From assembly GCA_963780165.1 (NCBI GenBank), contig CAWABB010000001.1:2219591-2283590 (forward strand): a stretch of 64,000 nucleotides of DNA, written 5' to 3'. Position 1 is the first letter of the stretch. The number at the start of each line of letters is the position of its first letter. Origin of the DNA: an uncultured Ignavibacteria bacterium. Lineage in GTDB: Bacteria; Bacteroidota; Ignavibacteria; UBA10030; UBA6906. Positions 45,190 to 50,208 of this stretch are shown piece after piece. Under the pieces are notes generated by a model. It saw nothing but the letters and a program-made list of their open reading frames with translations. It was not told the origin of the DNA and searched no databases. The translations under genes were made by a program, and so were the position numbers.

Positions 45190-45264
45190 CAACGGATCTC
45201 GGGGTGTAGCTCAGCCCGGTTAGAGCGCTTGCTTTGGGAGCAAGAAGTCGCTGGTTCGAATCCA
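45190..45264 (+). tRNA. tRNA-Pro (anticodon TGG)
   Basis: CGGGGTG acceptor pairs with CACCCCG. D-arm GCTC/GAGC. Anticodon stem CTTGC/GCAAG with loop TTTGGGA. TΨC loop TTCGAAT. Discriminator A. Confidence 0.85.
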
Positions 45265-45300
45265 GTCACCCCGACTCACACTCGACTGTTGTTGCCCTCC

Positions 45301-48614: not shown

Positions 48615-48644
48615 AAACGAAAAGCCCCGGCGCATGGCCGGGGC
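48615..48644 (-). terminator. Rho-independent terminator of the methyltransferase gene (minus strand)
   Basis: Minus-strand read GCCCCGGCcatgcGCCGGGGC followed by TTTTCGTTT, ~28 nt after the stop at 48672. Confidence 0.7.
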
Positions 48645-48671: not shown

Positions 48672-49787
48672 TCACTTCTTCTGAAACGTCAGCATCTCGC
48701 GACACTCGGATGCCATCCACTTCACGCCGTCGGTTCTGAGTCGCTGCCTCCCGCTGTCGGCACGCTTCGGCAGATAGACCTTCCCGATCACCTCCATTCC
48801 GAGCTCCTTCGCGACGCCGGTCACGTCTGACGGGTAATCCAGCAGGCCGAACGGTCCGCCGACCGCCTCAGTAATCACCGAGACCCGACCGCCCGGCTTC
48901 AGAATCCGAGCGCTCTCGCGCATCAACGACTTCAACTTCATCATCGTCTCCGACCGCGCCGCGGCAGGGGAGAAATCAGTGTCCTCGCCGTGCGCGAAAA
49001 ACTCGGCCGGCGGGTCAAGCAGTACATAATCCACAGACAAGCTCTGCTCCGGAATTCCCGTCTGCAGGACGTTGGCCCTGTTGATCCTGCCGTCGGCGGG
49101 ATCAACATCGTACATGCGCACCGAACGGTCCTTGAAATAGGGGAGGGTCTCGATCACATCTCCTGTCGTGCCGCTGCCGGCCATCGGGTCCACGACGACG
49201 CCTCCCGGCGGGCAGTAATAATAGAGGGCGTTGGCCACGATCTGACCCGCCAACCGACCTTTGTACCCCGGCTTTCCGAACCGCGGATCGGGCGAATCGA
49301 TCGACCAGATATTTTTTTCCTTCAGATCAAACCCATACTTCGTGCGTTCATCCTCTCTCTTTGCCAGCTCATCTTCGCGGATCTTCTTCTGCAGATCGGA
49401 GATGGTCCACTTTGCGTGAATTGCCATCTTCTCGTAGTGATCGCGGCGCTTGCTCTCGTCCACCTTCGTGCCCAGCTCGAAGTAGAAGATGTCGGGCAGC
49501 GGACGCTTTTCGACGTCAGGGTAATATGTGTAGAACTGCTGGCACTGTTTCAGCATGTGGTACGGGAACTTGAAGCCTGGCATCTCGGAGAGTTTCTTGA
49601 GAATCTGGTCGGCGAAGATGCCTTCCTTGAGGGCCGCCGGAATGACACGGTCAACGAGGAATTTCCCGAGGTCCCAGTAGTTGTCCGCCGAAAACGTGCT
49701 CAACTTCTCGATGAGAGGTTCGAGCGACGACACATGAGTGGGACGGGGTGCCGGACGGGGTGCGGGTTTGCGCGCGGTTTTCTTCAT
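48672..49787 (-). CDS. Atypical SAM-dependent methyltransferase (motif I DPMAGSGTT, motif IV DPPA) with Lys/Pro-rich N-terminal extension; apparent orphan
   Basis: …GGVVVDPMAGSGTTGDV… (FxGxG-type SAM loop) and ~55 aa later …VLLDPPAEFFAHGED… (a (D/N)PP(Y/F) variant). N-terminal ~170 aa is KPAPRPAPRP-containing and helical. No restriction enzyme or second MTase adjacent. Confidence 0.55.
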   Translation of the reverse strand: MKKTARKPAPRPAPRPTHVSSLEPLIEKLSTFSADNYWDLGKFLVDRVIPAALKEGIFADQILKKLSEMPGFKFPYHMLKQCQQFYTYYPDVEKRPLPDIFYFELGTKVDESKRRDHYEKMAIHAKWTISDLQKKIREDELAKREDERTKYGFDLKEKNIWSIDSPDPRFGKPGYKGRLAGQIVANALYYYCPPGGVVVDPMAGSGTTGDVIETLPYFKDRSVRMYDVDPADGRINRANVLQTGIPEQSLSVDYVLLDPPAEFFAHGEDTDFSPAAARSETMMKLKSLMRESARILKPGGRVSVITEAVGGPFGLLDYPSDVTGVAKELGMEVIGKVYLPKRADSGRQRLRTDGVKWMASECREMLTFQKK

Positions 49788-49955
49788 GGCATCCTCGCGA
49801 AGAGTAGAGGAGAAAGATTGACAAAACAGGAGAGATTAAACCTATATACGCGAATTGTGAGTCTGACGCAAGAGGAAATGCCCCACTCGGGGTCGGGACA
49901 CCATGATCACAGGTGGCGTCGTGCTCCGCGAATTCCGCCAGCCGGGGACGGTGCG

Positions 49956-49996: not shown

Positions 49997-50069
49997 GGGC
50001 CCGTAGCTCAACGGATAGAGCAACAGCCTTCTAAGCTGTAGGTTGCGCGTTCGATTCGCGCCGGGCCTA
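49997..50069 (+). tRNA. tRNA-Arg (anticodon TCT)
   Basis: Acceptor GGGCCCG/CGGGCCT (G1·U72). Anticodon stem ACAGC/GCTGT with loop CTTCTAA. T-arm GCGCG-TTCGATT-CGCGC. Confidence 0.85.
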
Positions 50070-50125
50070 CACGGCGTCACAGCGATTTCCTTTGTCCGTA
50101 CCCCACAGCGCGTCGTTGCTTTCCC

Positions 50126-50198
50126 GCCCCCATCGTCTAGAGGCCTAGGACACGAGCTTTTCAAGCTTGGAACACCGGTTCGAATCCGGTTGGGGGCA
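50126..50198 (+). tRNA. tRNA-Glu (anticodon TTC)
   Basis: Acceptor GCCCCCA/TGGGGGC. D-region TCTAGAGGCCTAGGAC is typical of tRNA-Glu. Anticodon loop TTTTCAA. T-loop TTCGAAT. Confidence 0.85.
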
Positions 50199-50208
50199 CA
50201 TCGCTTTC

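What the first reader, a model, noticed from the sequence alone, without database searches (positions are those of the whole stretch)
48672..49787. Atypical orphan SAM methyltransferase (DPM-AGSGTT…DPPA) with basic Pro/Lys-rich N-terminal domain, next to tRNA genes
Motif I is followed ~55 aa later by motif IV, a γ-like order also seen in UPF0020/RlmL-type RNA N2-G methyltransferases. Motif IV reads DPPA–EFF instead of (D/N/S)PP(Y/F/W). The ~170-aa N-terminal region (KPAPRPAPRP…, helical, charged) matches nothing I recognise. No restriction endonuclease, specificity subunit or second MTase is adjacent. It could be an orphan DNA MTase, an RNA methyltransferase, or part of an unrecognised modification system.
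Basis: partly seen in the sequence, partly recalled or inferred. Interest (0 to 1): 0.5.

Follow-up and report, generated by a model that had tools for sequence, protein, structure and literature searches.

The report
Solitary rearranged DNA-methylase relative in Ignavibacteria
This is a real, very strongly conserved stand-alone gene of uncultured Ignavibacteria that encodes a rearranged relative of DNA amino-methyltransferases with an altered catalytic motif; it most likely descends from the methylase of a phage-defence operon and now does a housekeeping job whose target is unknown.

Summary
The ORF 48672-49787(-), 371 aa, is a real gene. There is no nuclease, specificity subunit or second methylase nearby.

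The N-terminus is not unrecognisable. After a 20-aa basic tail it is a helical domain weakly like DUF1016_N (YhcG family).

The catalytic domain is a circularly permuted relative of the beta-class DNA amino-methyltransferases (Pfam PF01555), not of UPF0020 (PF01170). More distant relatives carry ParB or helix-turn-helix N-termini and canonical DPPY.

The sister clade, mostly Chloroflexota, keeps DPPY. In all 7 independent loci checked it sits in a NurA-like/HerA/methylase operon, several of them beside defence genes.

The Ignavibacteria clade differs in four ways:
- It is solitary.
- It sits among housekeeping genes in two stable syntenies.
- It is about as conserved as GlmS.
- Its motif IV is DPP-x-[DE]-[FY], with position 4 unconstrained.

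tRNA adjacency is not consistent: Arg/Glu upstream here, Phe downstream in one subclade, none in another.

The parts
48672..49787 (-). Complete CDS, 371 aa: basic tail, DUF1016_N-like helical domain and permuted class-I SAM methyltransferase domain
   Evidence: ORF list. More than 380 full-length homologs. AlphaFold2 model pLDDT 89.7, pTM 0.77.
49728..49787 (-). aa 1-20: Lys/Arg/Pro/Ala-rich basic tail. It is variable in sequence but present throughout the Ignavibacteria clade (22-33 aa) and absent from the Chloroflexota sister clade
   Evidence: Alignment A1, N-termini listed, low pLDDT of 57-58.
49335..49724 (-). aa 22-151: all-helical domain of seven helices, ending in a W-T-I-S-D-L helix and a long linker helix. 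It is DUF1016_N-like and is the presumed nucleic-acid-binding or target-recognition domain
   Evidence: PF17761 at E 1.1e-6, below cut-off; 38 of 48 members match; PADLOC PDC-S02 at E 5.9e-9; secondary structure. No solved homolog by sequence.
48675..49325 (-). aa 155-371: SAM-dependent methyltransferase domain, a circular permutation of the PF01555 beta-class amino-methyltransferase core (order X-I-II-III-IV...VIII)
49164..49190 (-). Motif I, DPMAGSGTT (aa 200-208), the SAM-binding loop. D200, P201, G204, G206 and T207 are invariant or nearly so
49107..49109 (-). D227 (motif II acidic residue, presumed contact to the SAM ribose), invariant across the whole wider family
   Evidence: Invariant column in A2, A3 and A6. 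The contact itself is inferred from general methyltransferase knowledge.
48996..49016 (-). Motif IV variant, DPPAEFF (aa 258-264). The clade consensus is DPP-x-[DE]-[FY], with x = A/S/H/T/E/K/G/Q/V/M. The canonical aromatic at position 4 is lost and an aromatic is fixed two residues later
   Evidence: Motif survey of 71 orthologous ORFs, conservation profile of the 67 full-length ones, comparison with DPPY relatives.
49792..49796 (-). GAGGA Shine-Dalgarno-like element 5 nt upstream of the ATG
   Evidence: Sequence. GGAG-like elements sit at the same place in most orthologous loci.
48615..48644 (-). Intrinsic-terminator-like hairpin (8 G+C pairs, 5-nt loop) followed by UUUUCGUUU, so the gene is monocistronic at its 3' end
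   Evidence: Sequence and fold at -24.9 kcal/mol, z -2.17. The consensus scan did not list it.
49997..50199 (+). tRNA-Arg(TCT) and tRNA-Glu(TTC), transcribed divergently from the methylase gene. They are neighbours only and I do not count them as part of the feature
   Evidence: ARAGORN and Rfam. This adjacency is absent from all other loci.

Best explanation
The gene encodes a solitary ('orphan') SAM-dependent amino-methyltransferase that most likely acts on DNA.

Proposed mechanism, with each step marked:
1. The basic N-terminal tail and the DUF1016_N-like helical domain bind nucleic acid. (Inferred. In homologs this position holds ParB or HTH DNA-binding domains.)
2. A long helix (aa 129-151) links that domain to a class-I methyltransferase domain. 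(Shown by the model.)
3. The methyltransferase domain binds SAM through motif I (aa 200-208) and D227. (Inferred from invariance.)
4. It presents a flipped base to the D258-P-P loop, with F263/F264 substituting for the lost motif-IV tyrosine as the stacking residue. (Inferred.)
5. It transfers a methyl group to an exocyclic amino group, giving m6A or m4C. (Inferred from family ancestry.)

Evolutionary reading: the domain is a circularly permuted offshoot of beta-class PF01555 methylases. The closest sister clade is the methylase of a NurA-like/HerA/methylase operon, often found in defence islands. At the base of the Ignavibacteria clade the methylase lost those partners, gained a basic tail, remodelled motif IV and became a slowly evolving core gene. 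This resembles Dam or CcrM, which are lineage-wide orphan methylases with housekeeping roles in replication, repair or regulation. The recognition sequence and the physiological role are unknown.
For: - **Family assignment.** PF01555 is the only methyltransferase family with consistent hits: 48 of 48 members (best E 1e-23) and 117 of 118 distant relatives.
- **Permutation.** Relatives match PF01555 profile positions 110-220 first and 2-85 second. The artificially re-permuted ortholog P0122 matches profile 2-200 of 221 contiguously at 41.3 bits, above the 26.7-bit cut-off.
- **N-terminal domains of relatives.** Every N-terminal domain listed in the top 25 Pfam families for the 118 distant relatives is DNA-binding or DNA-associated: ParB_N 20, HTH_23 19, HTH_3 10, HTH_28 9, HTH_ParB 8, Sigma70_r4 8, plus MarR, the small terminase subunit, RepB and DUF559. 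No THUMP, PUA, S4 or KH domain appears in that list.
- **Sister clade.** It has DPPY[GA] and sits in a NurA-like/HerA/methylase operon at 7 independent loci, five of which have defence genes (Cas1, AIPR, an MmeI-like enzyme, TIR domains) or toxin-antitoxin genes (HepT/MNT, ParE) next to the operon. A neighbour-joining tree places the Ignavibacteria clade as a monophyletic sister to it.
- **Orphan status and domestication.** tblastn finds no HerA or NurA-like gene in the window or in the other fetched loci L001-L080 apart from L074 and L075. The flanks are housekeeping genes, in two stable syntenies: S8 peptidase / methylase / Pterin_4a, and HisK-YfiH-GlmS-enoyl reductase(-acyl-CoA dehydrogenase) / methylase / tRNA-Phe.
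- **Conservation.** In the same genome pairs, methylase identity is 75.7% against 78.9% for GlmS. It is higher than for the enoyl reductase, YfiH, HisK, Pterin_4a and the peptidase.
- **Catalytic residues.** The SAM-binding residues and D-P-P are invariant.
Against: - The window protein itself scores below Pfam's cut-off for PF01555 (23.6 against 26.7 bits).
- The defining aromatic of (D/N/S)PP(Y/F/W) is missing, and position 4 is evolutionarily unconstrained. Canonical catalysis is therefore not assured.
- Conservation at the level of GlmS over the full length is more typical of enzymes that act on an invariant cellular substrate than of DNA methylases.
- No methylome data and no characterised member exist. 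All homologs come from uncultured organisms.
Confidence: 0.5

Rival explanations
1. After losing its defence partners the enzyme changed substrate. It now methylates a conserved cellular RNA (tRNA or rRNA, for example an exocyclic amine such as m2G or m6A) or another macromolecule. That would explain both the housekeeping-level conservation and the remodelled motif IV.
For: - The profile against PDB sequences gives weak hits to a THUMP/UPF0020 'putative methylase', 3ldu (E 4.8e-5), and to the RlmKL K-domain with its DPPT motif (E 0.004).
- Weak hits to Cons_hypoth95 (RsmD family) occur in 28 of 48 members (best E 3e-4).
- Identity is about equal to GlmS.
- Position 4 of motif IV is free, as in some non-DNA enzymes.
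- tRNA genes are adjacent in this window and in one subclade (tRNA-Phe 25-300 bp downstream on the same strand in about 28 loci).
- A basic N-terminal tail was acquired only in this clade.
Against: - No RNA-binding domain is present (no THUMP, PUA or S4). The N-terminal domain is DUF1016_N-like, and relatives have DNA-binding domains there.
- UPF0020 does not hit the window protein and never beats E 0.021 in the family.
- tRNA adjacency is inconsistent: different tRNAs, different sides, and none in subclade A. tRNA-modification genes are not normally linked to tRNA genes (general knowledge).
- m2G enzymes keep an aromatic or His at motif IV position 4 (recalled, not tested here).
- The distribution is restricted to one lineage.
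Confidence: 0.25
2. The protein is catalytically weak or dead. It would be a SAM-binding, nucleic-acid-binding protein, for example a SAM-sensing regulator or a structural DNA-binding factor, retained for binding rather than for methyl transfer.
For: - The canonical stacking tyrosine of motif IV is lost and position 4 is unconstrained.
- The window protein fails the PF01555 cut-off, and after re-permutation only the motif I half still matches.
- The N-terminal domain is at least as conserved as the catalytic domain.
Against: - D-P-P, the following [DE]-[FY], motif I, D227 and many other methyltransferase-domain residues are invariant over a clade that diverges to about 52% identity. That pattern argues for selection on an intact active site.
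- Changes at motif IV position 4 are tolerated in some active methyltransferases (general knowledge, not tested here).
Confidence: 0.12
3. It is still the modification half of a restriction-like or defence system whose other components are encoded elsewhere in the genome.
For: - The sister clade is always in a NurA-like/HerA/methylase operon.
- Its N-terminal domain is shared with DUF1016/YhcG nucleases, which are frequently embedded in R-M loci (PMC3424549, PMC9881135).
- PADLOC gives a weak mad2-like hit (E 6e-6).
Against: - tblastn found HerA and NurA-like genes only in the two Chloroflexota loci L074 and L075, and in neither the 64-kb window nor any of the other loci fetched by then, which hold up to 6-8 kb of flank on each side.
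- The neighbourhoods are stable, housekeeping and lineage-specific.
- Conservation far exceeds what is usual for R-M methylases, and there is no sign of mobility. Only 1 of 50,697 phage records and none of 72,556 plasmid records match.
Confidence: 0.08

Closest known systems
Beta-class N6-adenine/N4-cytosine DNA methyltransferases (Pfam PF01555 N6_N4_Mtase; e.g. M.RsrI, M.PvuII, CcrM, M.EcoGII, TTHA0409)
   Same: - The SAM loop has the same form, 'DPxxGSGTT', preceded by a conserved W and a helix.
- D-P-P is present in motif IV.
- PF01555 is the only methyltransferase family with consistent HMM hits.
   Different: - The order is circularly permuted: X-I-II-III-IV...VIII instead of IV...VIII-TRD-X-I-III.
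- There is no inserted target-recognition domain. A separate N-terminal helical domain is present instead.
- The motif IV aromatic is lost (DPP-x-[DE]-[FY]).
- The window protein is below the Pfam cut-off.
Permuted PF01555 methylases with N-terminal ParB_N or HTH domains (uncharacterised, mostly metagenomic; one phage example, MW202554 'parB')
   Same: The methyltransferase core and motif order are the same, including the signature N-x-W-x-F...DPRFG...PGR-x-PGQ before motif I. E-values to the query are 1e-24 to 1e-12.
   Different: They carry canonical DPPY (at least 90%) and different N-terminal domains. They share 22-28% identity in alignments A2 and A3. No evidence shows they are core genes.
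Methylase of the NurA-like/HerA/methylase operon (sister clade, mostly Chloroflexota/Dehalococcoidia; apparently undescribed)
   Same: It has the same two-domain architecture (DUF1016_N-like domain plus permuted methylase), the same length (360-375 aa) and 39-41% identity over the full length. It is the sister group in the tree.
   Different: It has DPPY[GA] and no basic tail. It is always the third gene of an operon with a HerA ATPase and a ~345-aa NurA-like protein, and defence or toxin-antitoxin genes flank five of the seven loci checked.
UPF0020/THUMP-family RNA m2G methyltransferases (PF01170: Trm11, Trm14/TrmN, RlmL)
   Different: There is no THUMP domain. The Pfam match is insignificant (best E 0.021 in the family, none for the window protein). 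Motif IV is not (D/N)PP(Y/F/H)G.
DUF1016 / YhcG PD-(D/E)XK nucleases (PF17761 + PF06250; PADLOC PDC-S02)
   Same: They share the N-terminal helical domain (E 1e-6 Pfam, 5.9e-9 PADLOC).
   Different: The C-terminal nuclease domain is replaced here by a methyltransferase. The N-domain match is below Pfam's cut-off.
Dam and CcrM (lineage-wide orphan DNA methyltransferases)
   Same: This is a functional analogy only. They too are solitary, vertically inherited, strongly conserved across a lineage and set in housekeeping neighbourhoods.
   Different: They are not orthologous. The NCBIfam CcrM model hits at E 0.43 over 23 residues. Dam-type PF02086 hits appear only sporadically and weakly in relatives. 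No methylome or phenotype is known for this family.

Membership tests
PF01555 N6_N4_Mtase (beta-class DNA amino-methyltransferases) | Pfam HMM score at or above the gathering cut-off (26.7 bits) | tested here: not met
   The window protein scores 23.6 bits, E 5.8e-5, over the motif X/I half only. The ortholog P0122 scores 39.5 bits, or 41.3 after re-permutation. 48 of 48 family members hit at E 1 or better.
PF01555 N6_N4_Mtase (beta-class DNA amino-methyltransferases) | SAM-binding motif I (FxGxG-type, 'DPFxGSGTT') | tested here: met
   DPMAGSGTT at aa 200-208. D, P, G, G and T are invariant or nearly so.
PF01555 N6_N4_Mtase (beta-class DNA amino-methyltransferases) | Catalytic motif IV (D/N/S)PP(Y/F/W) | tested here: not met
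   The window has DPPA. Position 4 is A/S/H/T/E/K/G/Q/V/M across the clade, and an aromatic is fixed at position 6.
PF01555 N6_N4_Mtase (beta-class DNA amino-methyltransferases) | Beta motif order (IV-VIII, TRD, X, I-III) | tested here: not met
   The order here is X-I-II-III-IV-VIII, which is a circular permutation.
PF01555 N6_N4_Mtase (beta-class DNA amino-methyltransferases) | Methylates N6 of adenine or N4 of cytosine in DNA | not testable with these tools
   No characterised member and no methylome. All homologs come from MAGs or metagenomes.
UPF0020 / Trm11-Trm14-RlmL RNA m2G methyltransferases (PF01170) | Pfam HMM match | tested here: not met
   No hit at E 1 or better for the window protein. 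19 of 48 members hit, best E 0.021.
UPF0020 / Trm11-Trm14-RlmL RNA m2G methyltransferases (PF01170) | N-terminal THUMP (plus NFLD) RNA-binding module | tested here: not met
   The N-terminus is seven helices, DUF1016_N-like. No THUMP hit appears in the Pfam results shown for the family or its relatives.
UPF0020 / Trm11-Trm14-RlmL RNA m2G methyltransferases (PF01170) | Fold and motif order I before IV shared with the catalytic domain | tested here: met
DUF1016 / YhcG family | DUF1016_N domain (PF17761) above cut-off | tested here: inconclusive
   29.2 bits against a 32.8-bit cut-off, E 1.1e-6. 38 of 48 members match, best E 8e-9. PADLOC PDC-S02 hits at E 5.9e-9.
DUF1016 / YhcG family | C-terminal PD-(D/E)XK nuclease domain (PF06250) | tested here: not met
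   The C-terminal 215 aa are a methyltransferase domain.
Restriction-modification or NurA-like/HerA/methylase defence module | Adjacent nuclease, ATPase or specificity partner genes | tested here: not met
   Pfam scans of the window neighbours. tblastn with the HerA and NurA-like proteins finds nothing in the window or in the other fetched loci L001-L080 apart from L074 and L075. The sister clade has these partners at 7 of 7 loci.
Lineage-conserved orphan DNA methyltransferases (functional class of Dam and CcrM) | Solitary, vertically inherited, conserved in sequence and synteny across a lineage | tested here: met
   Two stable syntenies. Identity is about equal to GlmS in the same genome pairs. 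The clade is monophyletic.
Lineage-conserved orphan DNA methyltransferases (functional class of Dam and CcrM) | Demonstrated genome-wide methylation motif and regulatory or replication role | not testable with these tools
   No methylome or genetics is available. Literature searches found nothing for this family.

The most novel reading that the evidence does not exclude
When the methylase of a NurA-like/HerA/methylase defence operon was orphaned in an ancestor of these Ignavibacteria, it was not merely retained as an epigenetic DNA methylase. It was re-tooled: the motif IV tyrosine was lost, an aromatic shifted by two residues and a basic tail was added. On this reading it now modifies a different, invariant cellular target, such as an RNA, a different base or atom, or a protein, and has become a near-essential housekeeping enzyme. 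That would be a documented case of a defence-system methylase changing substrate class.
Probability: 0.2. Interest if true: 0.7.

Novelty: new variant of a known kind. Interest (0 to 1): 0.42.

Why it matters
- It would add an example from a whole uncultured lineage, outside Proteobacteria, to the short list of lineage-wide orphan methyltransferases (Dam, CcrM). Unlike those, its origin is traceable to a specific defence operon.
- It shows an active-site motif (DPP-x-[DE]-[FY]) and a permuted topology that standard Pfam and REBASE-type rules miss or score below threshold. Such genes are therefore annotated inconsistently as 'hypothetical', 'DNA methyltransferase', 'RsmD' or 'ParB'.
- The carrier genomes include Nanopore MAGs, as their names suggest. 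The DNA-versus-RNA question might therefore be answered from raw signal data, if those are available.
- The sister NurA-like/HerA/methylase operon is a candidate new restriction-like defence system and is worth its own follow-up.

Tried and rejected
- **Solved structures by sequence.** Only weak, partial matches appeared: 3ldu, M.BceJIV-type chains and RlmKL. The N-domain profile found nothing significant; the best was the Ku70 SAP region at E 0.16.
- **Foldseek against PDB.** It gave only generic class-I methyltransferase hits. The afdb50 library was not available.
- **tRNA linkage as a functional clue.** Rejected. The adjacency differs between subclades and is absent in one.
- **Mobile-element or genomic-island origin next to the tRNAs.** Rejected. 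There is no integrase, no repeats were looked for beyond the gene content, the composition is unremarkable (GC 0.53-0.63 against about 0.60), and the gene lies on the 5' side of the tRNAs.
- **Phage or plasmid origin.** One phage hit and no plasmid hits.
- **Names of distant relatives.** None of the cluster members carries a name.
- **Conserved upstream motif suggesting autoregulation.** Nothing beyond a Shine-Dalgarno-like GGAG was evident by eye. No formal motif search was run.
- **Rfam.** Nothing in the flanks apart from the tRNAs.
- **Literature.** Searches for DUF1016-methylase fusions, Ignavibacteria methylomes, NurA/HerA/methylase systems and Nanomotif found no description of this family.
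- **Pfam scan of 140 relatives.** The first attempt exceeded the size limit. It was repeated with 118.
Full report
**1. The observation**

The ORF 48672..49787(-) exists as described: 371 aa with an ATG start. A GAGGA lies 5 nt upstream of the ATG. The same GGAG-like element sits before the start codon in most orthologous loci. Twenty-eight nucleotides after the stop there is an 8-bp G+C hairpin followed by UUUUCGUUU (dG -24.9 kcal/mol, z -2.2), so the gene looks monocistronic.

Motif I (DPMAGSGTT) is at aa 200-208 and DPPAEFF at aa 258-264, 58 aa downstream.

The gene is not a chance ORF. Two database searches each return about 380 protein clusters, with 65-77% and 52-61% identity over the full length. 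A scan of one genome per GTDB species finds 74 loci. One of them, L006 (99% identity), comes from the MAG 'uncultured Ignavibacteria bacterium MFD00032.bin.1.149' and is evidently the source organism. Every homolog comes from a MAG or metagenome; none comes from a cultured strain.

**2. Anatomy**

With a diverse alignment, AlphaFold2 gives a confident model (pLDDT 89.7, pTM 0.77). It has three parts:
- a disordered basic tail (aa 1-20);
- seven helices (aa 23-151), the last of them long;
- a class-I Rossmann methyltransferase domain (aa ~155-371).

The helical domain matches DUF1016_N (PF17761) at E 1.1e-6, which is below Pfam's cut-off. It also matches PADLOC's PDC-S02 (DUF1016/YhcG) models at E 5.9e-9, and 38 of 48 family members scanned hit PF17761. 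Those nucleases are often embedded in R-M loci (PMC3424549, PMC9881135). No solved structure matches the domain by sequence.

**3. Which methyltransferase family?**

By sequence the answer is PF01555.

| Test | PF01555 | UPF0020 (PF01170) |
|---|---|---|
| Window protein | E 5.8e-5, 23.6 bits, below the 26.7 cut-off, motif X/I half only | no hit |
| 48 family members | 48 of 48, best E 1e-23 | 19 of 48, best E 0.021 |
| 118 distant relatives | 117 of 118 | not among the 25 families listed |

The I-before-IV order is a circular permutation of the beta-class arrangement. Relatives match PF01555 profile positions ~110-220 first and ~2-85 second. I then cut the Chloroflexota ortholog P0122 before motif III and moved its C-terminal part to the front. 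The result aligned to profile positions 2-200 of 221 in one stretch at 41.3 bits. The same operation on the window protein recovers only the motif I half (22.5 bits), because its motif IV region has diverged.

**4. The wider family**

An exhaustive HMMER search of 1.84 billion representatives finds 672 proteins at E 1e-3 or better, but only 8 at E 1e-30 or better. At 50% clustering, therefore, the orthologous group collapses to very few representatives.

The more distant relatives (E 1e-24 to 1e-12) share the permuted core, including the signature N-x-W-x-F...DPRFG...PGR-x-PGQ before motif I. At least 90% of them have canonical DPPY.

Their N-termini, where Pfam recognises them and within the 25 families the output listed, are all DNA-binding or DNA-associated:
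- ParB_N, 20
- HTH_23, 19
- HTH_3, 10
- HTH_28, 9
- HTH_ParB, 8
- Sigma70_r4, 8
- also MarR, the small terminase subunit, RepB and DUF559.

No RNA-binding domain appears in that list. This is the main argument that the ancestral substrate is DNA. The family is rare in sequenced phages (1 of 50,697 records, a ParB fusion annotated 'parB') and absent from 72,556 plasmids.

**5. Sister clade and origin**

About 40 clusters have the same two-domain architecture and length but carry DPPY[GA] and lack the basic tail. Those whose source is named are Chloroflexota or Dehalococcoidia. They share 39-41% identity with the window protein.

At all seven independent loci examined (L074, L075, L081, L082/83, L084/85, L086, L087/88) the methylase is the last gene of a same-strand cluster. 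Directly upstream lies a HerA-type ATPase (DUF87/HerA_C; PADLOC HerA E 2e-30). Wherever the contig reaches that far, a conserved ~345-aa protein lies upstream of the ATPase. That protein has no confident family, although 3 of 6 members hit NurA (PF09376) weakly (best E 0.003).

Genes flanking these clusters in five of the seven loci include Cas1, AIPR, an MmeI-like type IIG enzyme, TIR-domain proteins, HepT/MNT and ParE/PhD. That gene content is typical of defence islands. I found no description of a NurA/HerA/methylase system in the searchable literature.

A neighbour-joining tree (no bootstrap) places the Ignavibacteria proteins as one monophyletic clade, sister to this operon-borne clade. 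Both sit inside the DPPY family.

**6. What changed in the Ignavibacteria clade**

- **Partners lost.** tblastn with the HerA and NurA-like proteins finds nothing in the 64-kb window or in any of the other loci fetched up to that point, L001-L080.
- **Housekeeping neighbourhoods.** Subclade A (63-77% identity to the window protein) has unknown-240aa / S8 peptidase / methylase / Pterin_4a. Subclade B (52-61%) has HisK / YfiH / GlmS / enoyl reductase (/ acyl-CoA dehydrogenase) / methylase / tRNA-Phe(GAA), all on one strand. The window genome has a third context: an ArsR/thioredoxin/ArsP/DsbD cluster on one side and divergent tRNA-Arg and tRNA-Glu plus a GT87 glycosyltransferase on the other.
- **Very strong purifying selection over the whole length.** In the same genome pairs, mean identity is 75.7% for the methylase against 78.9% for GlmS. 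It exceeds the enoyl reductase (71.6 against 68.5), YfiH (75.6 against 49.5), HisK (76.3 against 53.2), Pterin_4a (73.9 against 62.7) and the peptidase (74.5 against 58.3).
- **Motif IV remodelled.** In 71 orthologous ORFs surveyed (67 of them full-length) D-P-P is kept, with two ORFs the scan could not read. Position 4 is A/S/H/T/E/K/G/Q/V/M, that is, unconstrained. Positions 5-6 are fixed as [DE]-[FY].
- **Basic tail added.** A Lys/Arg/Pro-rich tail of 20-35 aa is present.
- **SAM-binding residues kept.** Motif I residues and D227 stay invariant.

**7. Interpretation**

The most economical reading is a domesticated orphan DNA amino-methyltransferase. The N-terminal tail and helical domain would bind DNA. 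The permuted PF01555-type core would bind SAM and methylate a flipped adenine (N6) or cytosine (N4), with F263 or F264 replacing the lost tyrosine as the stacking residue.

What is shown: the gene, its domain composition, the permutation, the phylogenetic position, the orphan status, the conservation and the motif change. What is inferred: DNA binding, base flipping, the role of F263/F264 and the chemistry. I give this reading about 0.5.

A catalytically dead SAM-binding protein (about 0.12) is disfavoured by the invariance of the active-site residues. A hidden defence partner elsewhere in the genome (about 0.08) is disfavoured by the stable housekeeping contexts and the absence of mobility.

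**8. Novelty and verdict**

The kind is known: a class-I amino-methyltransferase related to PF01555, solitary in the genome. The variant is new in four respects:
- the permuted topology combined with a DUF1016_N-like domain;
- the non-canonical motif IV, fixed across a lineage;
- core-gene behaviour in uncultured Ignavibacteria;
- a traceable origin from an apparently undescribed NurA-like/HerA/methylase operon.

Databases label members inconsistently as hypothetical, 'DNA methyltransferase', 'RsmD' or 'ParB family'. Interest is moderate at 0.42. Nothing here overturns current understanding. The substrate question might be tested with Nanopore data from the source samples, if the raw signal data are accessible, and the sister operon deserves separate attention.

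Noticed in passing
L074:949-4803, L075:3342-7071, L081:440-3284, L082:3130-7119, L084:2078-5929, L086:276-2502, L087:3291-7098: A conserved three-gene, same-strand module, found mostly in Chloroflexota/Dehalococcoidia MAGs and metagenome contigs. It consists of a ~345-aa protein (weak NurA hits only), a HerA-type ATPase (550-610 aa) and a DUF1016_N-permuted methylase with DPPY. It often lies next to Cas1, AIPR, an MmeI-like enzyme, TIR domains, HepT/MNT or ParE. It looks like an undescribed restriction-like defence system, and a literature search found no match.
   Followed up: partly
L037-L064, L076, L078 (e.g. L045:7187-7260): In subclade B of the family a tRNA-Phe(GAA) gene lies 25-300 bp downstream of the methylase on the same strand, in about 28 species-level loci. 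Co-transcription is possible. I treated this as conserved synteny, not as functional evidence.
   Followed up: partly
window:45301-48181 (-): A same-strand cluster of ArsR-family regulator, Thioredoxin_3 protein, ArsP_1 permease, thioredoxin and DsbD_TM protein. It ends beside tRNA-Pro(TGG) at 45200-45275 and is probably a redox or metalloid-handling operon.
   Followed up: partly
window:48182-48614: About 430 bp of apparently non-coding sequence lies between the methylase terminator and the arsR-like gene. Rfam finds nothing there at E 0.1 or better, only short ORFs are present, and the function is unknown.
   Followed up: partly
window:48990-49961 (+): A 323-aa ORF on the opposite strand overlaps most of the methylase gene. 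It is probably a shadow ORF of a G+C-rich coding region. I did not search it on its own.
   Followed up: no
L075:4308-5967 and L075:7343-8707: In this Chloroflexia MAG the HerA gene of the module is split into two overlapping ORFs (302 and 272 aa). This could be a frameshift, a sequencing error or a pseudogene. A Cas1 with a C-terminal double zinc-ribbon lies immediately downstream on the other strand.
   Followed up: no
window:42384-44024 (+) and window:50209-52116 (-): A secreted protein with a T9SS C-terminal sorting domain (Por_Secre_tail) and a GT87-family membrane glycosyltransferase flank the region. This is consistent with an origin in the Bacteroidota/Ignavibacteria group.
   Followed up: no
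L080 (MW202554.1:573-1853): The only phage-database relative is annotated 'chromosome partitioning protein parB'. It is in fact a ParB_N-permuted-methylase fusion located next to DNA polymerase genes, so the permuted methylase half is missed by the annotation.
   Followed up: partly
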